Notes: a model not told the origin generated them from the letters alone. A stretch of DNA of 64,000 nucleotides from Dictyostelium discoideum (GCA_000004695.1 CM000151.3:8000001-8064000); one strand, 5' to 3'; positions 30,601-60,701 are shown, numbered from the stretch's first letter. Numbers and translations are program-made.

Positions 30601-31387
30601 TGAATCATTATCACCAAGTGTTTGGAGATTTAAAGAAGCACCTGATGGTAGTAGTACTAGTGGTGTCTATTTACCACCACATTTCTTTGGTGAATTAGCA
30701 AAAACTGAAAAAGGTTGTCAATTAATTAGAAAATCAAATAACTATCAAAGATTTTTAAAAATCATTCAAGATCCAACCGCTAAACAATTGGATAAAAGAG
30801 CATCGTTAATCGCAATTGGTCATATTGGTTCTTCTGTCGATGGTTATTCATTCGTTAAAGAAAGTGATACAATCAAACTATTGATTGGAATAGCAGAGAA
30901 ATCTCAATGTTTGGCATTACGTAGTACTTGTTTCTATGCTTTGGGTATGATTTCATGTATTGAAGAAGCTCAACCAATCTTTAATTCCTTTGGTTGGGAA
31001 TCACCATCAGATTTAAACTCTAGAATCTTGTTACCAAAGGATTTAAAGAATTCAACTTTCCTAAGTGTACCACAATATCAATATCAAGGTAGTTGGGCTG
31101 ATCATTCATTTGAAACTTTACCATCAAATCATTTCTCTGATCCAATTAAAAATGAAATCATTTCTTTTGTTGGTAATTTATCTTCACATATCACTGCTGA
31201 AGGTGCTTCAAAGAATTTAAAACGTTTAAAAATCAAATATCCTGATCATTTTGCAACAAGTGAAATTTTAAATGCAGTTTTCATTTTATTAAATACTTTT
31301 AAATATCGTTTAGGTGCTAGAAGATTCATTTATGATTTATTTGATGTTGCAATATTTTCATCTGATCCATATCATGATTTAAATTAA
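27686..31387 (+). CDS. piaA: Rictor homologue (TORC2 subunit Pianissimo); join(27686..27978,28073..28556,28649..28879,28952..31387)
   Basis: Aligns with Rictor: VRPFIALPPKTIRTAGLRVMRYYLSNSNNVKELLDLKVQYFITRSLER matches VRAAGLRALRYLIQDSSILQKVLKLKVDYLIARCID. WGVELLVQQLNDVDAKVSALSLNVLDEACDDPSCLEVLIDLKPNLLKLGKPGKSLLLRFLSSPKG matches WGIELLVTQLHDKNKTISSEALDILDEACEDKANL...LLLLRFLSIPKG. Donors are gtaatt at 27979 (phase 2), gtaagt at 28557 and gtaagt at 28880. Acceptors are at 28071-72, 28647-48 and 28950-51. Summed CDS is 3444 nt, 1147 aa plus stop, close to the roughly 1148 aa recalled for PiaA. Confidence 0.85.
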
Positions 31388-32834: not shown

Positions 32835-33990
32835 AATTATTACTAATATATTTATTAATATATTTATTATTTATTTTAATATTTTATAGGAAGGATTTGA
32901 TCATGTTACATTTTGGGTTGGTAATGCATTACAAGCAGCAACTTATTACATTGCTAGATTTGGATTTCAAAATTTAGCTTATAGTGGTTTAGAAACTGGT
33001 AATCGTCAATTCGCCACTCATGTTATCCATCAAAACAACATTATTATGGCTTTTACATCACCATTAACTGGTGACAACAAAGATTATGCAGACCACATGA
33101 TGAGACATGGTGATGGTGTCAAAGATATTGCTTTCAACGTTAAAGATGTACAACACATTTATGATGAAGCAGTTAAAGCAGGAGCTCAATCAGTTAAAGA
33201 ACCACATCAAATTAAAGACGAACATGGTATTGTTACATTAGCAACTATCATGAGTCCATATGGTGAAACTACACATACTTTTGTTGATAGATCTCAATAT
33301 AAAGGTGCATTCTTACCAGGTTTCACATACAAGGTCGCTTCAGATCCATTATCAAATATCACCGAACCAGTTGGCCTCAACTTAATAGATCATGTCGTTT
33401 CAAATCATGCAGATAAAATGATGGAACCAGTCGTTCAATGGTACGAAAAGGTTTTACAATTCCACCGTTTCTGGTCAGTTGATGACAAAACCATTCATAC
33501 CGAATATTCATCATTAAGATCAGTCGTAGTTGCTGATAAGTCTGAAAAAGTTAAATTACCAATTAATGAACCAGCCAATGGTATTAGAAAGAGTCAAATT
33601 CAAGAATACGTAGATTTCTACAATGGTGCTGGTGTTCAACATATCGCCTTAAAGACTGATAACATCATTGATGCTATCTCAAAATTAAGATCTCGTGGTG
33701 TCTCTTTCCTCACTGTTCCAAAAACATACTATACATCACTCAGAGAGAAATTACAACACTCTTCATTAGAAATTAAAGAAGATTTGGACACTTTAGAGAA
33801 ATTACACATTTTAATCGATTATGATGACAAAGGTTATCTTTTACAAATCTTTACAAATAATGTTGAAGATAAACCAACTGTTTTCTTTGAAATTATCCAA
33901 AGAAACAACCATGATGGTTTCGGTGCTGGTAACTTTAAATCCCTCTTTGAAGCAATCGAAAGACAACAAGAAACTCGTGGAAACTTATAG
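32217..33990 (+). CDS. hpd: 4-hydroxyphenylpyruvate dioxygenase; join(32217..32219,32890..33990)
   Basis: Exon 2 aligns along its full length with 4HPPD: EGFDHVTFWVGNALQAATYYIARFGFQNLAYSGLETGNRQFATHVI ... HGDGVKDIAFNV ... LQFHRFWSVDDKTIHTEYSSLRSVVVA ... QIQEYVDFYNGAGVQHIALKTDNI ... LLQIFT ... IQRNNHDGFGAGNFKSLFEAIE. The in-frame ORF is open upstream to an acceptor tatag at 32888-89. The only upstream ATG in splice context is aaacaATG|gtaagt at 32217, so exon 1 is just ATG (phase 0). The model gives 367 codons, consistent with the family length. Confidence 0.75.
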
Positions 33991-34297
33991 GTGTGTCTCA
34001 ATTACAAATGTTCTTTATTATTAACTAAATAACATTACAATATATCAAAATAAATAATAAATAAATACTCTATTTAAAAAGTAATTTTTTAATAGTAAAC
34101 AAATTAAAAAAAAAAAAAAAAACAAAAAATTATCTCCTTTAAACATTTTAATTTCTTCTTTATTTATAAACAATGTGTTACAAATTATTACAACCCCAAT
34201 TTCAACATATTATTGAATTATAAGTTGGATTGGACACTTTAGAGAAATTACACATTTTAATAAGTTATAATATTTTATTAATTATTTATTTGTTTAT

Positions 34298-35225
34298 TTA
34301 TAATAATTTAATGAAATCAAATGTTTGAACATCGTTAGTATTGGTTACAGATTTGAAAGTGATAACGATATTACCAGATTCAAATGACCATGACCAATGA
34401 GCGTTCAAGTTAGCATCATGTTTAATGACGATTGTATGATTTGTAGTTGCTTCTTGAACTGCTTCTAAGATCATTTCATCAGCACAACGTTTGGCAAGAT
34501 TAGCAGCGACCTTTTCGACGATACCAGCAAAGATATGACCAAAACTATTCTTTAAATCATCTGCAACTTTTGGATAAACAGTTTCTAATGATGATTCATC
34601 AATTGACCAATCTGATGATGATTTTAATGCTTTTTTAACTGCTGATAAATTATCTTTCATTTTTTGTTCATTTGTTTTAATATTTAAACGAGTCATTAAA
34701 GTATAAACACCTTGAGTTGGAATAATAGTCTCTAATTTGAATGTGTTAACATCATTTGTGTTACAAATCTTTGGACGGAATAAAACTCTACAATCACCAT
34801 TCTCAAATTGATATTTCCAATAGGATTCCAACTTTTCATCAGCACAAACAAAAACGAATTTCTTATTTGGAACAGCTGCTAAAAATGCTTCTTTAATTAA
34901 TGGATCTGCACCGACTTTTACCATATTCTTTGCAAGATTACCAACTACATCTTTGTAAAAGATACTTCCACAACTATTAGTAACCCATGAATCATTACAT
35001 TTAGTAATAATATCTTCAAAATCAAATTCAATTGAAAATGGTTCACCTAATGATTTTTCGATTGATGCTAAATTAGTTTTTAAAGATTCTTCATTATCTT
35101 TTAATGATTTTCTATAAATATTATAAATTTAATTATTAATTAATATTTATATTAATTATTAAATGGAATATAATTATTATTATTTTTATTATTTATATTT
35201 ACCTTGAGGTTAAGGCGAGAGGCAT
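34298..35225 (-). CDS. uncharacterised two-domain protein family, copy A (278 aa); join(35225..35203,35111..34298)
   Basis: Exon 1 is ATGCCTCTCGCCTTAACCTCAAG|gtaaat. Exon 2 follows the acceptor tatttatag and begins A AAA TCA TTA AAA GAT... Protein MPLALTSRKSLKDNEESLKTNLASIEKSLGEPFSIEFDFEDIITKCNDSW...TNTNDVQTFDFIKLL. Copy-specific residues DPLIKE, CRVLF, IIPTQG. Confidence 0.8.
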
Positions 35226-35894
35226 TTTAAAAGTTTTTTTTTTATTAATATTGAAATATTATTTAGTTTAAGGTTTTTGTTTTGAATTATTTGGTAATAA
35301 AAAAAAAAAAAAAAAAATATTCACATTTTTATACTTAAAAAATAGAAAAAAATTAGATTAAAAAAATCCAGAAATATTTAAAAATATTAAATAAAAAATA
35401 TAATTATGAATTTTAAGAATGTAATTGGAATAGTTTTTTTTTTTTTTTAAAAAAATATCTTGTTTTTTTGTTTTAAAAAAAAAAAAAATATTTTAATTTG
35501 TATTTTTTTATTTTTTTTTTTTTTTTTTGGATCGGGTATCTTTAAAAAAAAAAAAAATTGATAATAAGATAATTTTTAAATTTTAATTTATTTTGTTACG
35601 AAATGAATTAAATTCATTATATATATAAATGTGTATTTTTTTTTTTTTTATTATTTATTTTAATTATTTGAATATAATGAGTTTAAAATAAACTATGGTT
35701 TGCCATATCGAAGTTTATTAAAAAATAAAAAAAGACTTAAAAAATTAAATTTGAAAAATAATAAAAAATAATAACAATTCCGTCCATTCAATTAAAAAAA
35801 AAAAAAAGATATGAATAGATATAGATAATTTAAAAAACTAAATTAAAATGTGAAATTTTATTTTTAAATGATTAATTTAAATTATTTTCTTTTA

Positions 35895-36000
35895 TCTAGA
35901 AATTGTCCAAAGAAACAATCATGATGGTTTCGGTGGTTGTAACTATAAGTCTCTCTTTGAGAAAATCGAGGAAAGTTATAATAAATTACAATCATGGTCT
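35895..36000 (+). pseudogene. degenerate duplicated fragment of the hpd 3' end (last about 35 codons plus 3' flank continuing to about 36090)
   Basis: 35897-36090 (gaaattgtccaaagaaacaatcatgatggtttcggtggttgtaactataagtctctctttgag...aatactctatttaaaaataattttttaatagtaaac) is a diverged, frameshifted copy of hpd 33890-34090 (gaaattatccaaagaaacaaccatgatggtttcggtgctggtaactttaaatccctctttgaa...aatactctatttaaaaagtaattttttaatagtaaac). Confidence 0.8.
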
Positions 36001-36178
36001 CAATTACAAAAGTTCCTTATTATTGGTTGAATATCAATATAAATTAATACTCTATTTAAAAATAATTTTTTAATAGTAAACTAACAAAAAAAAAATCAAA
36101 AAACAATCACCTTTTTATACTTTTAATTTCTTCTTTATTTTTTAACAATGTGTTTAATAATATTAGTAGCTTTTTTAT

Positions 36179-37106
36179 TTATAATAATTTAATGAAATCA
36201 AATGTTTGAACATCGTTAGTATTGGTTACAGATTTGAAAGTGATAACGATATTACCAGATTCAAATGACCATGACCAATGAGCATTCAAGTTAGCATCAT
36301 GTTTAATTACGATTGTATGATTTGTAGTTGCTTCTTGAACTGCTTCTAAGATCATTTCATCAGCACAACGTTTGGCGAGATTTGCAGCGACCTTTTCGAC
36401 GATACCAGCAAAGATATGACCAAAACTATTCTTTAAGTCGTCAGCAACTTTTGGATAAACAGTTTCTAATGATGATTCATCAATTGACCAATCTGATGAT
36501 GATTTTAATGCTTTTTTAACTGCTGATAAATTATCTTTCATTTTTTGTTCATTTGTTTTAATATTTAAACGAGTCATTAAAGTATAAACACCTTGAGATG
36601 GAATGATTGTTTCTAATTTGAATGTGTTAACATCATTTGTGTTACAAATCTTTGGACGGAATAAAATTCTACAATCACCATTCTCAAATTGATATTTCCA
36701 ATAGGATTCCAACTTTTCATCAGCACAAACAAAAACGAATTTCTTATTTGGAACAGCTGCTAAAAATGCTTCTTTAACTAATGAATCTGCACCGACTTTT
36801 ACCATATTCTTTGCAAGATTACCAACTACATCTTTATAAAAGATACTTCCACAACTATTAGTAACCCATGAATCGTTACATTTAGTAATAATATCTTCAA
36901 AATCAAATTCAATTGAAAATGGTTCACCCAATGATTTTTCGATTGATGCTAAATTAGTTTTTAAAGATTCTTCATTATCTTTTAATGATTTTCTAAAAAT
37001 AAAATAAAATAAATTATTAATTAAAATTTATATTAATTATTAAATGAAGCATTATTATTATTATTTTTATTATTTATATTTACCTTGAGGTTAAGGCGAG
37101 AGGCAT
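36179..37106 (-). CDS. uncharacterised two-domain protein family, copy B; join(37106..37084,36992..36179)
   Basis: Same two-exon structure as copy A (exon 1 is 23 nt, donor gtaaat at 37083, acceptor ttttag at 36994-93). Residues DSLVKE, CRILF, IIPSQG. Confidence 0.8.
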
Positions 37107-37398
37107 TTTAAAAGTTTTTTTTTTATTAATATTAAAATATTATTTATTAGTTTAAGGTTTTTGTTTTGAATTATTTGATAATAAAAAAAAAAAAAAAAAA
37201 ATTTACATTTTTATACTTATGAAATTAGAAAAAAAATAGATTAAAATCCAGAAATATTTAAAAATATCAAAAAAAACAAATAAAATTATTAATTTTAAGA
37301 ATGTAATTGGAATGGTTTTATTTTTTTTTTACACTTATAAATTAGAAAAAAAATAGATTTGAAAATATCTAGATTTTTTTTTTTTTTTTTTTTTTTGG

Positions 37399-37429
<31 letters not shown>

Positions 37430-37542
37430 AATATCTTAATTTGTTTTATTTTTTTTTTTTTTTTTTTTTTTTTTGGGTTGGTGTGCTTTAAAAAAAACAA
37501 AAAATAACAATGAAAAAAATAAACTCTTTTTGGGTTGAGGTG

Positions 37543-37579
<37 letters not shown>

Positions 37580-37640
37580 TGAACAGATAATTTCAAACAC
37601 TAAATTAAAATATGAAATTTTATTTTTTAAATGTTTAATT

Positions 37641-38672
37641 TCAATTATTTCTTTTTTCTAAATTAATTTTAAATTCGTTTGGTTTAAAAGAGAAACCAAA
37701 TATAGGTTTATCACAAATCTTTGAATTTTCAATTAAAGGTAATAGCTTAAAGTTTAAAACAAGGTTTGAAAGTGAAATGTATAATTCATCTTGAGAGAAA
37801 CCCATACCAATACAATTTTTAACACCAATTCCATATGGAAAATAATTATTTGAATGAGAATCTTGATCAAGGAATCTCTCTGGTTTAAATTGGTCAGGTG
37901 AATCCCAATAGTTTTCATCTCTAAATATTGAATAAAGTGATTGAATGATTTGAGTACCTTTTGGAATTTTCAAAGATCCACCATTAATTTCAAATGATTG
38001 ATTTACTTGACGAGGTACACCAAATGGTACAGGTGGATATAATCTCAAAACTTCTTTTAAAGCTGCATTAAATAATGGTGTTTGATTTCTATTTGAAAGT
38101 TTAATCATCGCTGTTGTCGTTTCCAATGTTGATTTTAATTCATTATAAATTTTATCTTGATAATCAAGATTATTTACCATTGTTAAAATGAACCATTCAG
38201 CAGTACTTGAATTTGTTTCTGTGCCAGCTAAAATTAATTCATTTACCATTGGGATGATTGAACTTTGTTCTTCTTTACCACCAACTTTTCTATATTCAAT
38301 AATCAATGAATCCAAAACATCTCTTGCATTATTTAAATCAATTGATTCAGAATGTTCTAAATAATATTTTGTTAAAATCTTTTTCAAAGAATCTGCTGGA
38401 TGACCAAACATTTTTAAATATAAAAAATAGAATGGTTTTGTAAATATTAAATAATTTACAATTAATGTATCTGCTAAATAATCAAATAATTCTCTAATTG
38501 CTAATAAAACTTTTCCTTGTTCTTCATTTACACCTTCATAAATATTTTCAATACGTCTTGAAAATACATAATCAAAAATAATATTTGAATAAAAGTTCAT
38601 AAAATTTGATCTTGGTGAAAACTTTTAAAAAAAAAAAAAAAAAAAATTAATAAACCAAGTAATGTTTTTAAC

Positions 38673-38727
<55 letters not shown>

Positions 38728-39242
38728 GTACTACTTACAGATTGACCAGATTTTTCAATAAATTTCATATATGTAATTAAATCAATTGTTTCTTTTTCTA
38801 TTGAAGATGAAAGTGATTTAACTTTTCTACCAGTAAATGATTTCATTAAAATATCACGATGAAATTGCCAATAATTTTCATCGGCAGTGACAATACCTCT
38901 AAATCTATTTCCTATTACATTTGTTGATGGTGATTTAACTCTTGTATTTAATGATTCTGGATTCTTTAAATAAATTTCTTTCATTGTATTTGTATCATAA
39001 ATTGCCAATGTCAATTGATCACAAAACCAATATTTGATTATTTTACCATTGTTATCACCATCTTTATATAGTTTACTATCATTTTGAAATACTAAATGTG
39101 TATCATCTTTTAAATGTAATAATGAACCTACTAATGGTAATGCCAAGGGTCCTTTAAATTGTCTATTACTAAAATTTTTATATAAAAAATCAAAAATTAA
39201 ATAAAAAATTATTGAAATTATTAAAATAATTAAAATTGACAT
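37641..39242 (-). CDS. cytochrome P450 monooxygenase; join(39242..38739,38621..37641)
   Basis: N-terminal membrane anchor MSILIILIISIIFYLIFDF. Heme-binding signature FPYGIGVKNCIGMGFSQDE near the C-terminus. PERF-like KPERFLD. Donor GQS|gtaagt at 38738, acceptor ttttttaaaag at 38623-22. Exon 2 begins FSPRSNFMNFYS. About 494 aa. Confidence 0.8.
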
Positions 39243-39643
39243 TTTAATATGCTTTGGTATCTTATAAAAAATAAAAAAATAAAAAATAAAAAAAAAAAAC
39301 AAAAAAAAAAAAAAAAAAAAAGGTGAAAGAAAAAAAAAAAAAAATATCTAAACTACTGTAAAAAAAAAAAATAAAAAAAAAATAAAAATAAAATAAATCT
39401 TTTTTTGGTTAAAAAACTAATTTTAAACATTGTTATAAATCTAAAATTTTCCATATGGTAAATAAAAAAAAAAAAATAATAATAATTCAAAAAACAAATA
39501 TAAATTATAAAAGATTATAAAATTCTTAAAAATTAAAAATGTTTTTTTTTTTTTTTTTTTTTATTATTATATTATTATTTAAATAAATAGATATATTACA
39601 AATTTTTATTTTTTATATATTATTAATTAATTAATTAATTAAT

Positions 39644-42189
39644 TTATCTAATTAATTCAATTAAAGAATTTTGTTGAAATTTACCAAAATTTCTAGCATA
39701 ATTATCTAATTCTCTAATCAATAATGGTGAATTAATTCTAATTTTTTTTAAAGTTTCATTTTTTGTATTTAAAATTTTAAATAAATCGAAATCGATTTGA
39801 CTAATAGTATCCATACAAATTCTTTTTAATCTTTTAACCATGAAACCATCGGCAACTTGCATTAGAATACAAATATTATCAAATGAAGTTAAAGTTTCTT
39901 CAAAATTTAAAATATCTTCTTTCTTTAATTTTTGTTGATTTCCATCGATGTTATTTGTTGTTTTTGGAACATTTTTTAATAAAATTTCATTATTTGATAA
40001 AACCATTTGTTCCAAATGATATTCACAAAGATATTTTAAATCTTCAATCATGAATCTATCAGCCAAACAAAGTATATCTATAGCATTATCATCATTGATA
40101 ATCTCTTCATTATTACCATAGATATATTGAAGTAATAGTTTGAAAGTTTCTTTGGAAGAGATATCATTTTCATCTTTACCACTTACAATGAATTCCATTT
40201 GATCCTTCTCTTTGAATGAACATTCAAACATTGTTTTAAAATAAAGATTTCTTTGAGTTAAAATGAATTTATGAGCGTAAATTGAAGAGGTATCAGATTC
40301 TTTGATTTTGAATGAAATATCAGCTTTGGTTAATTCATCAACTGCTTGAATTAATTGTTTACTAAATTCTGAAGGTGGTATTTTCTCGGTGAGTCTTAAT
40401 CTATAGGTATAACGTTTACAAATGGCTGATAATCTTTCAATTCCCATCTTTTCAGCATATTTACCCAATTCAATTCTTAAATGTGGTGCAATCACTAAAT
40501 GATCAGTATATAAATATTGTAAAAAACCAATGAAAATTTGATATTTAACTGAATTGCCTAAATCAATAATTTTAATTTCTTCACCATTTTCATTAAATTC
40601 TTTTTCTTCTTCTTTTTCTTCTTCTTTTTCTTCCTTAGCCACAACAACTTGTTTATTATTTGAATATTGATTAATAAATCTTGATGAAAATAAAATTATT
40701 GAATATAATTTTTGGCAACGTGATTTTATAAATAATGAATGAGAATAAATTTTCTTATCTTGAACTTTAAATATTAAATCTGCATACTTCTTTTCATTAA
40801 TTAATGATTTATAATCATAAGCAAATGAAGTTACATCGGAACATCTTACAACGATTGTATGTTTTTCACCGGCTGTGATCGATGCAATTTCTTCACCAGA
40901 TAGAGAAGTGATTAATTGTGGTACCAATTGAAATCTTTTATTACCTAAACCCAATGCACCAGAACTACCCCAACCCCATTGATAAACTTCATTCTCATCA
41001 GTTACAACGATTGTATGTAAATGACCACATGCTACATTTTTAATTTTTTTAGTTTCTAATGATTTAACCACTATTGGTATTGAATATTTGAAATGATTAT
41101 CTCTTCCACCGAAATCCAAATGTTGAGTTTCTTCTGTGCTACCCAATTGACCATATTCTCCATGACCAAATGCATACAATAGACCTTGGACGCTTCTAAC
41201 CATAGTGAAATTGGAACCACATGCAACTTGAGCTATTCTTTCATTTAATTCTACAAACTGTTGAATTTTCTTTGGATGAAGGTAACTCTTTACATTACCA
41301 TGACCCAATTGACCGAAAACACCAAGTCCCCAACTATAAACTTCACCTTGATCGGTGATGGCACAAATATGTTGACGACCACATACAACACTAACAATGT
41401 TCACATCGATTAATGTTTTCACCAATTGTGGTGTAGAATGAAACCAACGATTACCTAAACCCAATTGACCCTTTTCATTGAATCCCCATGTATATAAACG
41501 ACCAGATTTAGTAACGGCTGCACTAAATGCCCAACCACCACTCACATCTACCACTTCCTCTGGTATATCTTGAATTTGCATTGGAATGGTTTGATTTAAA
41601 TCAATGATTTTACCCAAATGCTTACTCTTTGATTGTGCACTATTGGATGCTTCCTTATCTTCATCATCATCCTTTGGTTTTGTACCACCATTGGCATCGT
41701 ATGCCTTCTTTTCACCCGATAGATATTGTGAAACTGATGCCTCTATAATTCTTTGAGATGATAATCTTGGCATTTCAATTAAACCATTGGTTGATTGTAT
41801 ATCCAATGATGATTGTGACTCGTCTAATCGATGTAGTTGACCCCATTCATAAACTTTACCCATATCAGTCAATGCTAAACTATGAAAATTACCACATGCT
41901 ACCTTTATAATTCTTTCATGTTGTAAACTTTTAATCAATGTTGGTTTTGCTACAAACATTACTTTATCACTACCACCATACCCTTGACCAATACCTAATT
42001 GACCTTCTTTTGATCTACCCCATGAATAAACATCTCCAAATCTTGATACAGCCAATGAATGTGCTTCACCTGATACTGTTTGTATAATTCTTTTACCTAA
42101 TAATCCTTCAATAACTGTTGGTTCTAAACATTCTTTAATTGAATCATGTCCTAACTGCCCATTTTTTGATTGTCCAACACTTAAAACTA

Positions 42190-42225
<36 letters not shown>

Positions 42226-42304
42226 ATGATTAATATAATTTATGTTGAACATTCAGAAAATAGTAAAAATAAAAAAAATAAAAATAAAAAAACTTACCTG
42301 ACAT
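39644..42304 (-). CDS. RCC1-repeat + tandem BTB/POZ domain protein (RCBTB-like); join(42304..42298,42186..39644)
   Basis: The track ORF starts at a TTG. The reading frame continues upstream (SVGQSKNGQLGHDSIKECLEPTVIEGLLGKRIIQTVSGEAHSLAVSRFGDVYSWGRSKEGQLGIG...) to the acceptor ttattag at 42188-87. The only matching start is the 7-nt exon ATGTCAG|gtaagt at 42304..42298 (phase 1), which gives MSVLSVGQS... The N-terminal 450 aa carry repeated RCC1 blades (YSWG/YTWG/YEWG...GQLG). The C-terminal half has two BTB-like segments (ADLIFKVQDKKIYSHSLFIKSRCQKL...; SSIYAHKFILTQRNLYFKTMFECSFKE...). Confidence 0.75.
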
Positions 42305-43017
42305 TTTATTATTTTTATTTTAATATTATATTTATATTTATGTTTATATGTTTTTTATTTGTTTTGATAATTTTTAATAAATTTTTTTTTTTTTTTTTTT
42401 TTAACTTTATTTTTTTTTTTTGTAAAATTAAATTTAAAAAAATAAAATAAATTAAAAATTAAATTTTAGAATTCTATAGAAAGAATTTTTCCTTTTATAG
42501 TAAGTTTTTGTTTTTTTTATTTTTGTTGTTTTTATAAAAAAAAAAAGGTTTTTGTTTTATTATTATTTTTGTTTTTTTATTTTTATTTTTGTTTTTTTTT
42601 ATTATAAAAGAAAAATGGATTTGAAAATAAATATTTTAAAAAAATTAAAATTAATTTTATGAAAAAAAAAAAATATTGAGTATGAGTGAATTAATAATCA
42701 ATAATGAAAATAAAAAAAAAAAAAAAAACTAATTCGTCTTTCTTTTTAAATTAAAAAAAAAAAAATAAAAACCAATTATTTATTATTTTTTATTTTTATC
42801 TTTTTTTTATTATTTTTTTTATATCAAGTAAATTAAATTATTATACCAAGTAAATAAAATAATACCCCAATAAAATGATAAAGTTCTTCTCAATTTCAAA
42901 GAATGTACCTGTTTTTTATTGATAAAATTTGAAAAATTAAAAAAAAAAAAAATAAAATTAGAAAAAAAATATTTTTTTTAATTTTATTTTCATTTTTTTT
43001 TATTTAATTTTTTTTTT

Positions 43018-43058
<41 letters not shown>

Positions 43059-43661
43059 TAATTTTTCAAAAATTGAGATATTTATTTCGCATATGTTTTA
43101 GTAAAAATAAGCCAAAATTAGTTTTTGGGTTTTGTTGGCATTTGTTTGTTTTTTGAGTATTAATTACATTTTTTAGTTTGAATATTTTTTTATTATTATT
43201 ATTATTTTTATTTGTTATTTATTATTATTGTTATTATTATTATTTTTTTTTTTTTTTGAGTTTTTCATTTTTGTGTTGCAAAACACAAATAAAAAAACAT
43301 GTCACACACCCATTCAGTTTATAATAAAAAAAAAAAAAAAAAAAAAGAAAAAAAAAGAAAATAAAAAAAAGTGGGATTTTCATTTTTTTTTTTTTTTTTT
43401 TTTCAATCATTTATTTTTATTTTTGTCATCAACATATTAATATATAATTATTTTTAAATCTCGTTTTAATAATTCCCCACTTTTTTTGTTTTTTTTTTTT
43501 TTTGCATAATTAATTTTAATTTTTATTTTTTTTTTCTGTACATATAATTTATTAAAAAAAATAAAAATAAAAAATAAAAAATAAAAATATAAAATAAAAA
43601 AAAAAAAAAAAAAAAAAATAAAATAATATAAAATAAAAAAAAAAAAAAAAAAAAAAAAAAA

Positions 43662-45683
43662 ATGAAAGATATTTGGAAATCAGCAAGAAAAGGTGATTTA
43701 GCAAAGATTAAAAAGTATATACCAGGCACAAAATTTAAAGTTGATGAATTAGATAAAGAGAATAGATCAATTCTTCATCATGCGATTGATGGTGACCAAT
43801 TACAAATGGTAAATTATTTATTAGAACAAGGTGCAAATATAAATTTAAAAGATCCTAAATCTGGTGATACTGTATGTATTTAATAATTATAAATAAATAA
43901 AATATATTATTATTATTTTTTTTTTTTTCTAATAGAAAAACATATGTTAATTATTAATTATTATTTTTTATTTATAATTTAGCCAATTTTAATGTCATTA
44001 AAAAAAATTAATGCAATTGATAAACAAGAAGATATTGCAATTTTATTAGTTAATAAAGGTGCAGATTTAGATGTTGAATCAAGAGAGAGAAAGAATGTTG
44101 AAAGATATGTTGATGCATGTCCAAAACGTTTTCAAATAAAGTATAAAGATGCAATTACACAAAAGTTTAAAAATAAATATCCACCAAAGGCAATTGCACC
44201 AGCAAGTCCAGCTACTCAAGTTCTTTTAGCGCAAACTGCAGGTTTACCACCACCTTCACCAAAACCAAATCCACCACCACCACAACAGCAAGAAAACACT
44301 GCTACATCATCAATTATATCAACTGTCGAACCAAGACCATATGTAAATTCAAATGGTGAAACAGTTGTAAGATCAACTAATGAAATGGATTTAATTTTAC
44401 AAGAATCATTGTTAGGTGATGATTTTGATAAAGAACAAGATTTGAATATAATTTGGATGGAAGTTGCATTTAGAGCATCAATCGTTTCCATTAGGTCTGA
44501 GAAAGTTAGATATGACGATATCACCAAAGCCACCGATCAATGTGGTAATATTTTAATACATTTGCTATCAATCATTGGTAATTCAGAGACAACATCGTTC
44601 ATGGAGACTGTAAAGAATCAAGAAGCTGTAAACTCAATTCAAGAACGTGTTAAAAACGTTAAGGAGGGTATCAAACTCCGACTGTTCTCTAGAATTGATC
44701 ATTCTGAATTAATTAGATTAGTTGCAGCTTTAATTGGTTCATTACATTGGATTTACAATTGCTGGTCAGAGGTCCCACAAGACGATATCAATAGATCAAT
44801 TGCCGAATGTGCCTTGTCATGTCGTGTTGCAATGAATTCAGTTACAACTCATACACCATTCCAGTTGGGTGTTTTAACAAATATTGCAAAACTTTTAAAA
44901 AATATTTCAACTAAAGTTTTCATTACTCGTACTCCAGAGGATGCAAAGAAGTTATCAGATTCTTGTTTTGTTATCTCTTCAACTTTTAAATCATTAATGG
45001 TTCTATCGGTAGTGAATGATGTCAAACAAAAATCAGCTGAAAATATCATCTCATTAGGTCGTTCAATCGCCGAACAATTATCAATATTAAAATTACAATC
45101 AACTTCAATCTTACCTTCAAGAGTTGGTCAAAATTTATCATCAAAAGAAGAACGTGAGTTAAATGAATCTGCTTCAAATCAATTACGTTCATCAATTGAT
45201 TATTATATTTCAAATAATAAATCTGATACAACTACTACTACTACAACTACAACTACAACTACAAATAGTGAGAATAATAATATTACAGATTTAATTTCAT
45301 CACCAAAAAGATTACCAAAAGAAGATAAAACATTACCATTATTAGCAAATATTGAAAAATCAATTTCAATGTTAATGGGATTTACAACTGAAGATAGAAA
45401 TATTCAAATGGCAATTCCAGTTCATATGATTGCAAAGGATATTCATGAACTTAGAACTATATTATTAGAATACATTAAAGAACAATCTGATAGTTTATCT
45501 GAAGAATTTAAAGATCAAATTACAAATGCTATCAATTGTTCTGCTCATTTTTCAACTCAACAATTATTCTCTGTATCTGCTTTAATTTGTCATAATAGAA
45601 TTACTGATATCTCACAATTAGGTTATTCTTCTCGTAATATTGCTGCTTGTTGTTGTATTTTAATTGATTCATTCTGTTTTTAA
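43662..45683 (+). CDS. ankyrin-repeat protein with large C-terminal domain of unknown function; join(43662..43871,43983..45683)
   Basis: Exon 1 reads MKDIWKSARKGDLAKIKKYIPGTKFKVDELDKENRSILHHAIDGDQLQMVNYLLEQGANINLKDPKSGDT, then gtatgt at 43872. The acceptor aatttag at 43981-82 leads into PILMSLKKINAIDKQEDIAILLVNKGADLD, an ankyrin GDTP...A...G consensus that spans the junction. About 636 aa. Contains T11 and a Pro-rich linker. Confidence 0.7.
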
Positions 45684-45818
45684 AAAATAAATAAATAATA
45701 AATAAATAATAAATAAATAATAAATAAATAAATAAATAAAATTTGTAAAATAAAATATTAATTTATAATAAAATAAATCAATTTATTTTTTCCCTGAAAG
45801 TAAAATAAAATTAATTAA

Positions 45819-45843
45819 TTAATCTCGAAAATGAATTTTTAAG

Positions 45844-45896
<53 letters not shown>

Positions 45897-47222
45897 GAAA
45901 TTATTAAAATTATTAATATTAAAATTATTCTTTAAATTTTTTGATAGTGATAAAAATGTTAATGAAATTGGTAATTTAATTTTTAATAAATTTTCAATTG
46001 AATAATTATTATTTAATATTAAATGAGTTAATGTTGATGGTAATATATTATCTTGATCAAATGGTTGATTAAAATTTATATTTTCTAAAAGGTTAAATAT
46101 TTTTAAACCATTTGGTAATATGTTTGTATCAATTTTTGAATTGAAATAACCAATGATTGAAAATTCAATTAAACTTGTTAAACATTGTAATAATGAACCA
46201 ATATAATAATTTAAATTTAAATTTAATCTTTTACATGTGAATTCAATCAAGTCAAATGCAATTTCAAATTTTTTAATTGAATTACTTGGTGATAGTATAG
46301 ATGGAGTTAATGGTATTTGTAAATCATAAATTTGTAAATTCTCAACTGTTGATGGTATTGAATTTGGTAGAAATTTCATATCTTTTGAATAACATTCTAA
46401 ATTTATTAATGATGGTGGTAGTGATTCATGAGTAATTTCTAATTTATTAGTATTATTATTTTCATTTTCATTTTCATTAATATAATACATCATAGTTAAT
46501 GATTTTACATTTATTGGTATAACATTTTTAACAAGTTTATTACATTTTAAAATCACTTCTAAATTAATTATTGAATTTGGTAATACTGAAATATCAAAAC
46601 CTTCTCTGTAACTATTTAATACTAAATTTTTAATACCATTTGGTATATCACCAATTTTTAAAATTGAATCACCATTATTCCACTCATTTATAAATGTTAT
46701 TGATTCTAATGTACTTGGAAATTTAATTGTATCTTTTGAAATTTTTGGACATTTTAAAAATGTTATTTCTTTAATATTATTTGGAATTAAATAATCATTA
46801 CCTTTACTATAATCAGTTTCATTAATTACAACATTTTTAACTGACTTAATTGTTGATGGTAATAGGAAAAGAGGAGTTGTGGAAACGAGTATGTTATTAT
46901 TAAATGTTAAACTAATTCCAAATTCAATTATTTCAACTCCAAATGGTATTAAACAACTTGCAATATTTGAAATTGATTGTTCTTTAAATACTATTTTATT
47001 TAATACACCATTTTTATTATTTGGTAAAAAACACTTTTCATTTATTGATTCATTACCTTTATATATTAATGTTCTAATATATTCCTTATTTTCATATTCA
47101 ATTAATGATGTTAAATTTAAAAATGTTACAATTTCATTTTTTTCATATAATAATTTAAACTCTAAAATCATTTTTAACAAATAAACATTTCTCCAAACCT
47201 TAAAAAATAATTTATCTTTCAT
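45819..47222 (-). CDS. FNIP-repeat (Dictyostelium-type leucine-rich repeat) protein, 467 aa
   Basis: Continuous ORF. Repeated approximately 22-residue units of the form LP.(S/N/G)I(K/E).L.(F/L)... (IPNNIKEITFLKCP, LPNSIINLEVIL, LPNSIPSTVENLQIY, LPNGLKIFNLLENINFNQPF). Coordinates are taken from the ORF track because of the ±1 local inconsistency noted in this stretch. Confidence 0.7.
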
Positions 47223-47663
47223 TATTTGATTTTTTTTTTTAAGAATTTCAAAAGGAAGAGTTTGAAAAATTCATTATCGATTTCACAAATAATAAAATTT
47301 CAGTCCAATTTTTACAATTAAAATTTTTTATTTATTATTTTTCAATTTTTAGATTAGAGGTAATAAAAATAAAATAAAATAAAATAAAAAAAAAATTAAA
47401 ATTAAAATTAAAAAAAAAAAACAAGATATTTTCATTGGTTAAAAAAAAAAAATATCTTTTTTATTAAAAAAAAAAAAAAAACATTCCAACTACATTCTTA
47501 AAAATAATAATTTTATTTTTTTAAATATTTCCAATTCTAAATCTATTTTATTTCTATTATTATTTTTTTTATTTTATTTTTTATAAGTATAAAATGTAAA
47601 TTTTTTTTTTTTTTTTCCAATCAATTCAACAAACTTTAAACTAATCAATACAATAAATTAAAA

Positions 47664-48590
47664 ATGCCTCTCGCTTTAACTTCAAGGTAAAAAAAAAAAA
47701 AAAAAAAAAATTATAATTCATTTAGTGGTTAATAATTTAAAATTACTAATTTAAATTAAATTTATTTAATTTATAGAAAATCATTAAAAGATAATGAAGA
47801 ATCTTTAAAAACTAATTTAGCATCAATTGAAAAATCATTGGGTGAACCATTTTCAATTGAATTTGATTTTGAAGATATTATTACTAAATGTAATGATTCA
47901 TGGGTTACTAATAGTTGTGGAAGTATCTTTTATAAAGATGTAGTTGGTAATCTTGCAAAGAATATGGTAAAAGTCGGTGCAGATTCATTAATTAAAGAAG
48001 CATTTTTAGCAGCTGTTCCAAATAAGAAATTTGTTTTTGTTTGTGCTGATGAAAAGTTGGAATCCTATTGGAAATATCAATTTGAGAATGGTGATTGTAG
48101 AATTTTATTCCGTCCAAAGATTTGTAACACTAATGATGTTAACACATTCAAATTAGAGACAATCATTCCATCTCAAGGTGTTTATACTTTAATGACTCGT
48201 TTAAATATTAAAACAAATGAACAAAAAATGAAAGATAATTTATCAGCAGTTAAAAAAGCATTAAAATCATCATCAGATTGGTCAATTGATGAATTATCAT
48301 TAGAAACTGTTTATCCAAAAGTTGCCGACGACTTAAAGAATAGCTTTGGTCATATCTTTGCTGGTATCGTCGAAAAGGTCGCTGCAAATCTCGCCAAACG
48401 TTGTGCTGATGAAATGATCTTAGAAGCAGTTCAAGAAGCAACTACAAATCATACAATCGTTATTAAACATGATGCTAACTTGAACGCTCATTGGTCATGG
48501 TCATTTGAATCTGGTAATATCGTTATCACTTTCAAATCTGTAACCAATACTAACGATGTTCAAACATTTGATTTCATTAAATTATTATAA
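47664..48590 (+). CDS. uncharacterised two-domain protein family, copy C; join(47664..47686,47777..48590)
   Basis: Exon 1 ATGCCTCTCGCTTTAACTTCAAG|gtaaaa has synonymous changes relative to the other copies. Acceptor ttatag at 47775-76. Residues DSLIKE, IIPSQG, IDELSLE. Confidence 0.8.
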
Positions 48591-49270
48591 ATAAATAAAA
48601 AAAGCTATTAATATTATTAAACACATTGTTAAGAAATAAAAAAGAAATTAAAAAGTATTAAAAGGTGATTGTTTGTTGATTTTTTATTTGTTTATTTATT
48701 GTTTATCATTTAAAAATTAATTTAGTGTTTTAAATTATCAATTTCTATTCATATCTTTTTTTTTTTTCTCATTTAACTGAATGGATGGAATTGTTATTAT
48801 TTTTCAAATTTATTTTTTAAAGTCTTTTTTTATTTTTAATAAACTTCGATATGTTAAACTATTTTTTATTTTAAACCGTTTAATACAAATAATTATAATA
48901 AATAATTGAAATATATAACAAAATAAATTAAAATTAAAGATTAAATTCTATTGTCAATTTTTTAAAAAGAGTGTATAATAATAAAAAAAATAGTATAGAT
49001 AAAATATTAAGTAGATATGTGATTATCTATTTTTTTTTTTTTTTCATTTGGAAATTTAGACAATTCAAACACTATGTTATTCATACATCAAAAATTAAGA
49101 TATTATTTTAGTTTTATTTTTTATTTTTTTTTATTTTTTATTTTTTTTAACGATACCCCTATAAAAAAAAAAAAAAAATAAAAAAAAAAAAAATAAGATA
49201 TTTTTAAAAAAAAAAAAAAAATAAAAAAAAACAAGTCCAGATATTTTTTTTTAAAAAAAAAAAAAAAAAA

Positions 49271-49388
49271 TCATTCCAATTACATTCTTGAAATTAATAA
49301 TTTTATTTTTTATCTAATATTTTTAAATATTTCTGGATTTTTAATCTATTTTTTTTCTATTTTTATAAGTATAAAAATGTAAATATTT
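49271..49388 (+). promoter_or_regulatory. conserved promoter module shared by the five-copy family, representative copy D; equivalents at 47481..47600 (C), 50995..51110 (E), 35322..35432 (A, minus strand) and 37204..37317 (B, minus strand)
   Basis: Near-identical blocks lie 80-200 bp upstream of each ATG: TCATTCCAATTACATTCTT(G/A)AAA(T/A)TAATAATTTTATTTT, then ...TTTAAATATTTCTGGATTTTTAATCTATTTTTTTTCTATTTTTATAAGTATAAAA(A)TG(T/G)AAAT. Conservation is far above the surrounding poly-A/T spacer. Confidence 0.5.
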
Positions 49389-49468
49389 TTTTTTTTATTA
49401 TTATCAAATAATTCAAAACAAAAACCTTAAACTAATAATATTTAAATATTAATAAAAAAACATTTAAA

Positions 49469-49496
49469 ATGCCTCTCGCCTTAACCTCAAGGTAAG

Positions 49497-49527
<31 letters not shown>

Positions 49528-50399
49528 GCTTCATTTAATAATTAATATAAATTTTAATTAATAATTTAATTTATTTTATTTTTAGAAAATCATTAAAAGA
49601 TAATGAAGAATCTTTAAAAACTAATTTAGCATCAATTGAAAAATCATTGGGTGAACCATTTTCAATTGAATTTGATTTTGAAGATATTATTACTAAATGT
49701 AACGATTCATGGGTTACTAATAGTTGTGGAAGTATCTTTTATAAAGATGTAGTTGGTAATCTTGCAAAGAATATGGTAAAAGTCGGTGCAGATTCATTAA
49801 TTAAAGAAGCATTTTTAGCAGCTGTTCCAAATAAGAAATTCGTTTTTGTTTGTGCTGATGAAAAGTTGGAATCCTATTGGAAATATCAATTTGAGAATGG
49901 TGATTGTAGAATTTTATTCCGTCCAAAGATTTGTAACACAAATGATGTTAACACATTCAAATTAGAAACAATCATTCCATCTCAAGGTGTTTATACTTTA
50001 ATGACTCGTTTAAATATTAAAACAAATGAACAAAAAATGAAAGATAATTTATCAGCAGTTAAAAAAGCATTAAAATCATCATCAGATTGGTCAATTGATG
50101 AATCATCATTAGAAACTGTTTATCCAAAAGTTGCTGACGACTTAAAGAATAGTTTTGGTCATATCTTTGCTGGTATCGTCGAAAAGGTCGCTGCAAATCT
50201 CGCCAAACGTTGTGCTGATGAAATGATCTTAGAAGCAGTTCAAGAAGCAACTACAAATCATACAATCGTAATTAAACATGATGCTAACTTGAATGCTCAT
50301 TGGTCATGGTCATTTGAATCTGGTAATATCGTTATCACTTTCAAATCTGTAACCAATACTAACGATGTTCAAACATTTGATTTCATTAAATTATTATAA
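49469..50399 (+). CDS. uncharacterised two-domain protein family, copy D; join(49469..49491,49586..50399)
   Basis: Exon 1 is 23 nt then gtaaga. Acceptor tttag at 49584-85. Residues DSLIKE, IIPSQG, IDESSLE. Confidence 0.8.
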
Positions 50400-51192
50400 A
50401 TAAACAAAAAAAGCTATTAATAATTAAAACACATTGTTAAAAAATAAAGAATAAATTAAGTATAAAAAGGTGATTGTTTGTTGATTTTTTTTTATTTGTT
50501 TTTTATTGTTCAAAGTCTTTTTTTTTAATAATAATCGATATGTTAAACTATTTTTTATTTTAAACTCCTTTAAATACAAATAATAAAAATAAATAATTTT
50601 ATCCAAAAAAAAAAAAGAAAAAAAAATGAATTATAATTCATTGTGTAACAAAATAAATTAAAATTAAAAATAATATCTTATTATTATATTTTAAAAAAGA
50701 GTGTATAATAGATAAAAAACTAAAAAAAGTATTGATAAAATATTAAGTAGATTATCTTTTTTTTTTTTTTTTTTTTTTTCTTTTTGAAATTAAGATAATT
50801 CAAACACTATTTATTCATTACATCAAGTATTATAAAGAATTAAAAGATATCATTATATTTTTCTTTTTTTTTTTTTTTAACGATACCCCTATCCAAAAAA
50901 AAATAAAAAATAAAAAAAAAAAAACAAAAAAAAATAAAAAATAAAAAAAAAATAATATAAAAACCAAAATCCAGATATTTTTTATAAAAAAAAATCATTC
51001 CAATTACATTCTTAAAATTAATTATTTTATTTGTTATTTAATATTTTTAAATATTTCTGGATTTTTAATCTATTTTTTTTCTATTTTTATAAGTATAAAA
51101 TGGAAATTTTTTTTTTTTTAATTATCAAATAATTCAAAACAAAACAAACTAATAAATAATATTTTAATAATAATAAAAAAAAAACTCTTAAA

Positions 51193-52121
51193 ATGCCTCT
51201 CGCCTTAACCTCAAGGTAAAAATAAATAATAAAAATAAAAATAATAATAATATTTCATATAAAAATTAATAAAAATTTATTAATAAATAAATTTATTTTA
51301 TTTTTAGAAAATCATTAAAAGATAATGAAGAATCTTTAAAAACTAATTTAGCATCAATCGAAAAATCATTGGGTGAACCATTTTCAATTGAATTTGATTT
51401 TGAAGATATTATTACTAAATGTAACGATTCATGGGTTACTAATAGTTGTGGAAGTATCTTTTACAAAGATGTAGTTGGTAATCTTGCAAAGAATATGGTA
51501 AAAGTCGGTGCAGATCCATTAATTAAAGAAGCATTTTTAGCAGCTGTTCCAAATAAGAAATTTGTTTTTGTTTGTGCTGACGAAAAGTTGGAATCCTATT
51601 GGAAATATCAATTTGAGAATGGTGATTGTAGAATTTTATTCCGTCCAAAGATTTGTAACACAAATGATGTTAACACATTCAAATTAGAAACAATCATTCC
51701 AACTCAAGGTGTTTATACTTTAATGACTCGTTTAAATATTAAAACAAACGAACAAAAAATGAAAGATAATTTATCAGCAGTTAAAAAAGCATTAAAATCA
51801 TCATCAGATTGGTCAATTGATGAATCATCATTAGAAACTGTTTATCCAAAAGTTGCAGATGATTTAAAGAATAGTTTTGGTCATATCTTTGCTGGTATCG
51901 TCGAAAAGGTAGCTGCTAATCTCGCCAAACGTTGTGCTGATGAAATGATCTTAGAAGCAGTTCAAGAAGCAACTACAAATCATACAATCGTCATTAAACA
52001 TGATGCTAACTTGAACGCTCATTGGTCATGGTCATTTGAATCTGGTAATATCGTTATCACTTTCAAATCTGTAACCAATACTAACGATGTTCAAACATTT
52101 GATTTCATTAAATTATTATAA
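51193..52121 (+). CDS. uncharacterised two-domain protein family, copy E; join(51193..51215,51308..52121)
   Basis: Exon 1 is 23 nt then gtaaaa. Acceptor tttttag at 51306-07. Residues DPLIKE, IIPTQG, which match copy A. Confidence 0.8.

Positions 52122-52659: not shown

Positions 52660-60701
<8,042 letters not shown>

What the first reader, a model, noticed from the sequence alone, without database searches (positions are those of the whole stretch)
34298..52121. Mirror-symmetric sharing of variants between copies: outer copies A and E match each other, inner copies B and D match each other
The diagnostic residues are DPLIKE with IIPTQG in A and E, the outermost copies on each side. They are DSL(V/I)KE with IIPSQG in B and D, the inner copies. 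Copy C is an extra D-like copy with S-to-L at IDELSLE and synonymous changes in exon 1. This pattern is what is expected if a two-gene array (outer type plus inner type) was duplicated as an inverted, palindromic copy. Inter-arm gene conversion would produce the same pattern. Independent tandem expansion on each side would not.
Basis: seen in the sequence. Interest (0 to 1): 0.65.

Follow-up and report, generated by a model that had tools for sequence, protein, structure and literature searches.

The report
Gene-converting inverted gene arrays, flipping core
Five near-identical copies of an uncharacterised Dictyostelium gene sit as two inverted arrays around a 10.5-kb four-gene core; the arrays exchange sequence and flip the core between strains, a well-known behaviour of inverted repeats.

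Summary
The window is D. discoideum AX4 chromosome 2. Five 278-aa paralogs (DDB_G0277415/417 on the minus strand, 421/423/425 on the plus strand) differ at five residues. P78 and T140 occur in A and E; S78 and S140 occur in B, C and D. Exon-2 trees group (A,E) at 91.5% and (B,D) at 99% bootstrap.

The favoured origin, an inverted duplication of a two-gene array, is not supported.
- D. citrinum has one copy per arm around the same four-gene core (P450, RCC1-BTB, ankyrin, FNIP). D. dimigraforme has two per arm.
- Copies cluster by genome, not by position, which indicates concerted evolution.
- B and D differ at 3 of 889 nt in a sharply bounded tract, but by about 11% just upstream.
- The B-to-A and D-to-E spacers are only about 72% alike over part of their length.
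- A and E are only modestly close (11 of 814), and mostly share ancestral states.
- C is the anchored FNIP-adjacent copy, not an extra D-like copy.

The core is inverted between genomes at least twice, and arm copy numbers vary (1 to 4). The best reading is an old inverted repeat with inter-arm gene conversion and crossover. This is a new example of a known mechanism.

The parts
34298..35225 (-). Copy A (outermost on the hpd side). It is 278 aa with P78, V117 and T140, and is one of DDB_G0277415/417.
   Evidence: Gene model. The exact protein is in the AX4 records.
36179..37106 (-). Copy B (inner copy, adjacent to the P450 gene). It carries S78, V80 and S140.
47664..48590 (+). Copy C (inner copy, adjacent to the FNIP-repeat gene). 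It carries S78, S140 and L181. Its promoter, exon 1 and intron are positionally orthologous to the FNIP-adjacent copies of strains ACTFIR and ACTFIW. Only exon 2 is homogenised with B and D.
   Evidence: (5' region 26-29% diverged from B and D; exon 2 differs by 1.1-1.35%)
49469..50399 (+). Copy D (middle copy of the ATG2-side array). It carries S78 and S140.
51193..52121 (+). Copy E (outermost on the ATG2 side). It carries P78 and T140.
49513..50401 (+). D side of the B-D near-identity tract, inferred to be a gene-conversion tract. It has 3 differences in 889 nt and includes a 601-nt identical run (49801-50401). It covers the 3' part of the intron, exon 2 and 2 nt past the stop.
   Evidence: (I1: 911 nt, 99%)
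36178..37065 (-). B side of the same tract.
37107..47663 (.). Central unique segment of about 10.5 kb. It holds P450 (-), RCC1-BTB (-), an ankyrin-repeat gene (+) and a FNIP-repeat gene (-). Its orientation relative to the hpd/RICTOR and ATG2 flanks differs between genomes.
   Evidence: ORFs and Pfam. Gene order in other genomes. DNA collinearity.
35899..36165 (+). Degenerate copy of the hpd 3' end plus the hpd-A intergenic DNA (matches 33889-34190 at 72%). It lies inside the B-to-A spacer and is absent from the right arm. It marks a tandem duplication that happened on the hpd side.
   Evidence: visible in the alignment
33046..33990 (+). Outer flank on the left: the last exon of 4-hydroxyphenylpyruvate dioxygenase (hpd), convergent with A. 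RICTOR lies upstream at 28751-31387.
52660..55485 (-). Outer flank on the right: the 3' part of the ATG2 gene, convergent with E.
   Evidence: PF13329, E = 2.4e-136

Best explanation
The five genes are the two arms of an old inverted repeat. The arms flank a 10.5-kb four-gene core on D. discoideum chromosome 2. Each arm is a small tandem array whose copy number changes.

Homologous recombination between the inverted arms has two outcomes.
- Non-crossover events copy short tracts, essentially exon 2 and the 3' part of the intron, from one arm to the other. This keeps the coding sequences of both arms nearly identical within a genome (concerted evolution). Promoters, 5' intron and spacers stay diverged.
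- Crossover events invert the core. When the register is unequal, they move copies from one arm to the other.

In AX4 the 'inner pair' B=D is the product of a very recent conversion of about 0.8-0.9 kb. C has had its exon 2 converted to the same type. A and E are older, partly eroded relatives that mostly keep ancestral alleles.

What is shown: the inverted architecture in three species, clustering by genome, the bounded B-D tract, both core orientations, and variable arm copy number.
What is inferred: that the molecular mechanism is intrachromatid homologous recombination, and that A and E were linked by a direct exchange.
For: 1. Age of the architecture. D. citrinum has copy(-)-FNIP-Ank-RCC1-P450-copy(+), one copy per arm. 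D. dimigraforme has copies on both sides of the same core.

2. Concerted evolution.
- The two citrinum copies differ at 5 of 814 exon-2 sites but by 62-75 from any discoideum copy.
- The dimigraforme inner pair differs by 8, against 58-62 to the citrinum positional orthologs.
- The tree groups copies by genome: ACTFIY 100%, and all discoideum-complex copies together at 100% with the citrinum copy outside; the four dimigraforme copies lie outside these, at the root, where the tree was rooted on one of them. AX4 alone gets 66%.

3. Exon-limited homogenisation. The ratio of 5'-region divergence to exon-2 divergence is 4.3-8.8 for positional orthologs between strains. It is 43.7 for B-D, 41.4 for ACTFIR G3-H2in, 38.2 for the citrinum pair, 25.9 for the dimigraforme inner pair and 23.8 for C-D.

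4. The B-D tract. There are 3 differences in 889 nt. Just 5' of it there are 29 differences in 231 nt, and just 3' there are 26 in 131. A Fisher test of gene body versus promoter against the other pairs gives p = 0.0008.

5. Mosaicism. 24 of 55 incompatible site pairs among the five AX4 copies and 282 of 630 among 15 copies. Many AX4 variants are shared with copies of other strains.

6. Crossovers. The core is P450-toward-hpd in AX4, ACTFIY and D. citrinum. It is FNIP-toward-hpd in ACTFIR (one 4.9-Mb contig spans the whole locus), ACTFIW and ACTFIZ. DNA collinearity confirms this. On the RCC1-BTB tree (supports 72-100%) this needs at least two inversions.

7. Arm copy numbers, hpd side + ATG2 side: AX4 2+3, ACTFIR 2+4, ACTFIW 4+?, ACTFIY 3+1, ACTFIZ 1+?, D. 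citrinum 1+1.
Against: - A-E is weak evidence for exchange. Its 5':exon-2 ratio is 10.6, only just above the ortholog range, and its Fisher p is 0.88. Six of its eight shared exon-2 states equal the citrinum state.
- My run-length (Sawyer-type) and interval tests on the five-copy alignment were not cleanly significant for B-D: global p = 0.07, and the best interval was ill-placed. Variable columns are dominated by C's diverged 5' region.
- A PHI-like test showed no spatial clustering of incompatibilities (p = 0.59). Some incompatibility could therefore be recurrent mutation at AT-rich synonymous sites.
- The inversion breakpoints could not be mapped inside the arrays, because spacer orthology is ambiguous.
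- The ATG2-side arms of ACTFIW and ACTFIZ were not seen.
- The strain phylogeny rests on one core gene plus hpd identities.
Confidence: 0.8

Rival explanations
1. Reader's preferred model. A two-gene array (outer type plus inner type) was duplicated once as an inverted copy, giving A/E and B/D as duplicate pairs. C is a later tandem copy of D.
For: The exon-2 tree gives (A,E) 91.5% and (B,D) 99%. A and E uniquely share A-T-T at exon-2 sites 550/553/556. A and E also share the first 12-20 nt after the stop codon (I4).
Against: - D. citrinum has the inverted pair as 1+1 copies.
- The B-to-A and D-to-E spacers are about 72% identical over only about 300 of 800-950 nt. The hpd fragment is only in the B-to-A spacer.
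- B and D differ by 10.7% in the 350 nt 5' of exon 2 but by 0.25% in exon 2.
- The 5' UTR, exon 1 and 5' intron group A with B.
- C's 5' half is orthologous to the FNIP-adjacent copy of other strains.
- No outer or inner type is conserved across strains.
Confidence: 0.06
2. For the A-E half of the pattern only. There was no direct A-E exchange. The terminal copies of each array take part least in homogenisation (an edge effect), so both simply retain ancestral alleles that B, C and D have lost.
For: The states shared by A and E at exon-2 sites 209, 395, 550, 553, 556 and 685 equal the D. citrinum states. P78 and T140 are ancestral. A-E has an ortholog-like 5':exon-2 ratio. In ACTFIR the hpd-side outer copy is also nearest to the ATG2-side outer copy, though only by 14 against 15-19.
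Against: All 16 other discoideum-complex copies, including the outer ones, have C-C-C at sites 550/553/556. Independent retention in exactly two AX4 copies on opposite arms would need a very long-lived polymorphism despite rapid homogenisation. A and E also share derived C157 and T610. Bootstrap for (A,E) is 91.5%.
Confidence: 0.2
3. The shared variants are homoplasies or selection-driven convergence, with no exchange between copies.
For: High four-gamete incompatibility without spatial structure is compatible with some recurrent mutation.
Against: 20 of the 25 variable exon-2 sites are synonymous. Selection cannot explain genome-wise clustering of synonymous sites on arms that predate speciation, nor a 601-nt identical run between B and D flanked by more than 10% divergence.
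Confidence: 0.03
4. Assembly artefact: collapsed or mis-joined repeats in the AX4 reference or in the new assemblies.
For: The ACTFIW contig starts right at the P450 gene, meaning the assembly broke at an arm.
Against: An independent AX4-like assembly is collinear with window 24233-45284 at 99.4-99.6% and reproduces A and B. The exact C, D and E proteins occur in a second assembly. The ACTFIR, ACTFIY and D. citrinum loci each lie on single multi-megabase contigs spanning both arms.
Confidence: 0.02

Closest known systems
Palindromes with arm-to-arm gene conversion, such as human Y-chromosome palindromes (P6 study, PMC3723533: gene conversion keeps arms above 99.9% identical, with rare inversions)
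   Same: Inverted arms lie around a unique spacer. Arms are kept alike within a lineage by non-reciprocal exchange. Occasional crossovers invert the spacer.
   Different: Here the arms are short tandem arrays of a 0.93-kb gene. Homogenisation is confined to about 0.9 kb (exon 2 and the 3' intron). Promoters and spacers are 10-30% diverged, arm identity is 98-99.7% rather than above 99.9%, and copy number per arm varies.
Recurrent inversion polymorphisms mediated by inverted repeats through non-allelic homologous recombination (human survey, PMC3961182; the Xq28 FLNA-EMD example is from my own knowledge)
   Same: A unique segment is bounded by inverted homologous sequences. Both orientations are present among genomes. 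Orientation does not follow phylogeny, which implies recurrence.
   Different: The organism is a haploid social amoeba. The repeats are functional gene arrays. The breakpoints regenerate intact hybrid genes. Frequencies in populations are unknown.
Concerted evolution of tandem or inverted multigene families through unequal crossing-over and gene conversion (general model, from my own knowledge)
   Same: Paralogs cluster by species. There are mosaic shared polymorphisms and copy-number turnover.
   Different: The tract limits coincide with the coding exon. The innermost copies keep position-specific, orthologous 5' regions across strains.

Membership tests
Inverted repeat / palindrome with arm-to-arm gene conversion | Two homologous arms in inverted orientation around a unique spacer | tested here: met
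   A and B on the minus strand, C, D and E on the plus strand, around 37107-47663.
Inverted repeat / palindrome with arm-to-arm gene conversion | Arms are older than their sequence similarity implies: paralogs cluster by species | tested here: met
   The same architecture occurs in D. citrinum and D. dimigraforme. Within-genome exon-2 differences are 2-23, against 56-85 between species. Trees.
Inverted repeat / palindrome with arm-to-arm gene conversion | Discrete conversion tracts with diverged flanks | tested here: met
   B-D has 3 differences in 889 nt, flanked by 12.6% and about 20% divergence. Ratio test; Fisher p = 0.0008. My Sawyer-type run test was only marginal.
Inverted repeat / palindrome with arm-to-arm gene conversion | Near-identity along the whole arm, as in Y palindromes (above 99.9%) | tested here: not met
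   Spacers are 72-81% identical and promoters 10-29% diverged.
Inverted-repeat-mediated recurrent inversion (non-allelic homologous recombination) | Both orientations of the intervening segment exist among genomes | tested here: met
   Orientation I in AX4, ACTFIY and D. citrinum. Orientation II in ACTFIR, ACTFIW and ACTFIZ. DNA-level confirmation.
Inverted-repeat-mediated recurrent inversion (non-allelic homologous recombination) | Recurrence: orientation is incongruent with phylogeny | tested here: met
   The RCC1-BTB tree is (dim,(cit I,(FIZ II,(FIY I,(AX4 I,(FIR II,FIW II)))))), with supports 72-100%. At least two events are needed. This rests on one gene plus the hpd identity ranking.
Inverted-repeat-mediated recurrent inversion (non-allelic homologous recombination) | Breakpoints map inside the repeats | tested here: inconclusive
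   The unique flanks and the 5' regions of the innermost copies stay with their neighbours, so the breakpoints lie within the arrays. Spacer orthology is too ambiguous to place them.
   The B-to-A and D-to-E spacers are 72% identical over about 300 nt. The hpd fragment is only on the left.
   In the 5' UTR, exon 1 and 5' intron, A-B is the closest pair (11 differences in 163), against B-D 20 and A-E 25. Exon 2 gives (A,E) and (B,D).
Known protein family for the encoded 278-aa protein | Match to a curated domain or a solved fold | tested here: not met

The most novel reading that the evidence does not exclude
The 10.5-kb core (P450, RCC1-BTB, ankyrin, FNIP) bracketed by the inverted gene arrays is a recurrently flipping, possibly maintained, structural polymorphism. 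Its orientation or arm copy-number changes would have phenotypic consequences. These could include altered expression of the innermost copies or core genes, or local suppression of recombination between strains during the sexual cycle. Under this reading the arrays are kept as inverted repeats because of this, rather than being a neutral by-product.
Probability: 0.07. Interest if true: 0.7.

Novelty: new member of a known kind. Interest (0 to 1): 0.4.

Why it matters
It turns an odd residue pattern into a documented case of concerted evolution and recurrent inversion at a gene-array inverted repeat in a model amoeba. Three practical points follow.
- The AX4 reference orientation of this 10.5-kb core is not universal.
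- Paralog trees at this locus do not reflect duplication history.
- The locus is small enough (18 kb, testable with four junction PCRs) to measure rates of mitotic and meiotic inter-arm recombination and gene conversion in Dictyostelium.

It does not reveal a new mechanism, and the function of the encoded protein remains unknown.

Tried and rejected
- My first guess from memory, that these were the cAMP-regulated M3/prt genes, found no support. All sources call them hypothetical proteins, and a literature search gave nothing relevant. No paper mentions the five DDB_G identifiers.
- Whole-unit MAFFT alignment of the spacers was unreliable because the sequence is AT-rich and low in complexity. 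I switched to pairwise segment comparisons.
- The Sawyer-type maximal-run permutation test and an interval likelihood scan were dominated by C-specific variable columns. They gave marginal or ill-placed tracts and I do not rely on them.
- A PHI-like neighbour-incompatibility test showed no spatial signal (p = 0.59).
- I tried to map the inversion breakpoints by finding spacer orthologs across strains. The best matches were ambiguous: both the C-to-D and B-to-A spacers best match the ACTFIR G4-to-G3 spacer.
- The D. purpureum homolog is intronless and sits in a different gene context, so it is uninformative for this locus.
- ACTFIV protein P0049 turned out to lie at a different paralogous locus.
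- Searches for a paper describing the new Dictyostelium assemblies or inversions in Dictyostelium found nothing.


Full report
**What is there**

The window is about 20% G+C. The five proteins are exact matches to D. discoideum AX4 chromosome-2 entries DDB_G0277415, 417, 421, 423 and 425, all annotated as hypothetical.

Each gene has a 23-nt exon 1, a 90-94-nt intron and an 814-nt exon 2, and encodes 278 aa.
- A: 35225..34298 (-)
- B: 37106..36179 (-)
- C: 47664..48590 (+)
- D: 49469..50399 (+)
- E: 51193..52121 (+)

The two arms point away from a 10.5-kb unique core that holds a P450 gene, an RCC1-BTB gene, an ankyrin-repeat gene and a FNIP-repeat gene. Outside A lie hpd and RICTOR. Outside E lies ATG2.

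**Checking the observation**

- P78 and T140 occur in A and E.
- S78 and S140 occur in B, C and D.
- V80 is private to B, V117 to A, and L181 to C.

At nucleotide level, exon-2 differences are B-D 2, C-D 9, A-E 11 and B-C 11, with 14-18 for all other pairs. NJ bootstrap is 99% for (B,D) and 91.5% for (A,E).

An independent AX4-like assembly reproduces the left arm. The pattern is therefore real.

Its mirror order alone is not statistically remarkable. With two inter-arm pairs among 2+3 copies, half of the six possible pairings are nested.

**Comparative evidence**

I fetched the orthologous locus from other genomes.

| Genome | Arrangement |
|---|---|
| D. citrinum | ATG2 - copy(-) - FNIP - Ank - RCC1 - P450 - copy(+) - hpd - RICTOR; one copy per arm |
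| D. dimigraforme | Two copies on each side of the same core |
| D. discoideum ACTFIR | 2 copies on the hpd side, 4 on the ATG2 side |
| D. discoideum ACTFIW | 4 copies on the hpd side; ATG2 side not seen |
| D. cf. discoideum ACTFIY | 3+1 |
| D. cf. discoideum ACTFIZ | 1 copy on the hpd side; ATG2 side not seen |

The inverted architecture therefore predates these species, while the arrays expand and contract.

Exon-2 sequences nevertheless cluster by genome, not by position.
- The two citrinum arms differ at 5 of 814 sites but by 62-75 from any discoideum copy.
- The dimigraforme inner pair differs by 8, against 58-62 to citrinum positional orthologs.

Most of these sites are synonymous, so this is concerted evolution, not selection.

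**Where homogenisation acts**

The 350 nt 5' of exon 2 (promoter, exon 1, intron) behave differently from exon 2. I compared 5' divergence with exon-2 divergence as a ratio.

| Comparison | Ratio |
|---|---|
| Positional orthologs between strains | 4.3-8.8 |
| B-D | 43.7 |
| ACTFIR G3-H2in | 41.4 |
| Citrinum pair | 38.2 |
| Dimigraforme inner pair | 25.9 |
| C-D | 23.8 |
| A-E | 10.6 |
| D-E | 7.5 |
| A-B | 5.0 |

B and D differ at 3 of 889 nt between D 49513 and 50401 (B 37065-36178), including a 601-nt identical run. They differ at 29 of 231 nt just upstream and 26 of 131 just downstream. A Fisher test against other pairs gives p = 0.0008. This is the footprint of a recent, bounded inter-arm conversion.

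The spacers do not mirror each other.
- The B-to-A and D-to-E spacers are about 72% identical over about 300 nt.
- Only the B-to-A spacer contains a degenerate copy of the hpd 3' end (35899-36165). The corresponding spacer in ACTFIY also contains one.

A whole-array palindromic duplication is therefore not the source of the present similarity.

**Copy C**

C's promoter, exon 1 and intron match the FNIP-adjacent copies of ACTFIR and ACTFIW. In those strains the FNIP-adjacent copy sits on the opposite (hpd-side) arm.

C's two exon-1 'changes' are the states found in D. citrinum and D. dimigraforme, so they are ancestral.

C is therefore the anchored innermost copy. Only its exon 2 has been converted to the B/D type. 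It is not an extra D-like duplicate.

**Copies A and E**

A and E share eight exon-2 states against B, C and D.
- Six of them (sites 209, 395, 550, 553, 556 and 685) equal the citrinum state, including P78 and T140.
- Two (157 and 610) are derived, but are also polymorphic among copies of other strains.

The A-T-T haplotype at 550/553/556 is absent from all 16 other discoideum-complex copies. It is present in D. citrinum, including its second paralogous locus.

A-E kinship is thus real but old or partial. It could reflect an earlier exchange, or retention of ancestral alleles at the array edges. I give the edge-retention reading about 0.2.

Site patterns are strongly reticulate. Among the five AX4 copies 24 of 55 site pairs are incompatible, and among 15 copies 282 of 630 are.

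**Inversions**

The core orientation differs between genomes.
- AX4, the AX4-like assembly, ACTFIY and D. citrinum have P450 facing the hpd-side arm.
- ACTFIR, ACTFIW and ACTFIZ have FNIP facing the hpd-side arm.
- In ACTFIR one 4.9-Mb contig spans the whole locus.
- BLAST collinearity confirms the orientation difference at DNA level.

The core-gene tree is (dim,(cit,(FIZ,(FIY,(AX4,(FIR,FIW)))))), with supports 72-100%. The hpd identities give the same ranking. At least two independent inversions are therefore required.

Crossovers between inverted copies explain the flips. Crossovers in unequal register explain the redistribution of copies between arms; this part is inference.

**The protein**

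- It consists of two homologous domains of about 135 aa.
- The AlphaFold model is confident, with pLDDT 91.7.
- A profile search finds 339 cluster representatives, including single-domain and multi-domain forms.
- Its function remains unknown and is not needed for the verdict.

**Verdict**

- The gene-conversion alternative is supported.
- The palindromic two-gene duplication is not supported.
- The locus is a new example of a well-known class: inverted repeats undergoing arm-to-arm conversion and recurrent inversion (compare PMC3723533 and PMC3961182).
- I found no publication on this locus.

Noticed in passing
window 35899-36165 (compare 33889-34190): A degenerate (72%) copy of the last ~100 nt of the hpd coding sequence plus the hpd-A intergenic DNA sits in the B-to-A spacer. 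The tandem duplication on this arm therefore included part of the neighbouring gene. A similar fragment follows the P450-adjacent copy in ACTFIY (L005 10956-11185).
   Followed up: partly
window 34230-34261 and 33784-33815: An exact 32-nt direct repeat links the hpd coding region and the ~107-nt stretch that lies between A's stop codon and the 3' flank common to all units. In ACTFIR and ACTFIW, 34198-34261 matches only inside hpd. A's private 3' insertion seems to derive from hpd coding sequence.
   Followed up: no
L012 5886-10903 (D. citrinum GCA_054859325.1, a different locus): A second cluster of the same family also has inverted copies, two on the minus strand and one on the plus strand. 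They differ from each other by only 8-12 of 814 exon-2 sites but by 65-67 from the citrinum copies of the studied locus. Inverted arrangement with local homogenisation may be a habit of this family.
   Followed up: partly
L006 9225-9328 (ACTFIY, ATG2-side arm): A 104-nt remnant of the 3' end of a copy (96% identical) lies upstream of the single intact copy. It is probably the scar of an array contraction.
   Followed up: no
Introns of ACTFIY ATG2-side copy (L006) and D. dimigraforme P450-adjacent copy (L007): The intron carries a long (ATA)n microsatellite expansion in these two copies only (alignment).
   Followed up: no
Encoded protein, all five copies: The 278-aa protein is an internal duplication of a ~135-aa alpha/beta domain, each ending in W-x-W/Y-x-F-E-x-G...N-T-N-D-V-x-T-F. 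The AlphaFold model is confident (pLDDT 91.7) but has no convincing match in PDB. Relatives include single-domain (~140 aa) and multi-domain (up to 1116 aa, one with a PH domain) proteins.
   Followed up: partly
L001 start (ACTFIW contig JBTAPG010000054.1, record position ~153): This multi-megabase contig begins right at the P450 gene. The assembly broke at the other repeat arm, so that strain's ATG2-side arm was not seen.
   Followed up: no
L007 12276-13089 (D. dimigraforme): The second copy on the P450 side is inverted relative to its neighbour. It shares a distinctive intron with the outer copy on the FNIP side (L008 10093-10906). This is an outer-outer resemblance in another species, but in direct rather than mirror orientation.
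   Followed up: no
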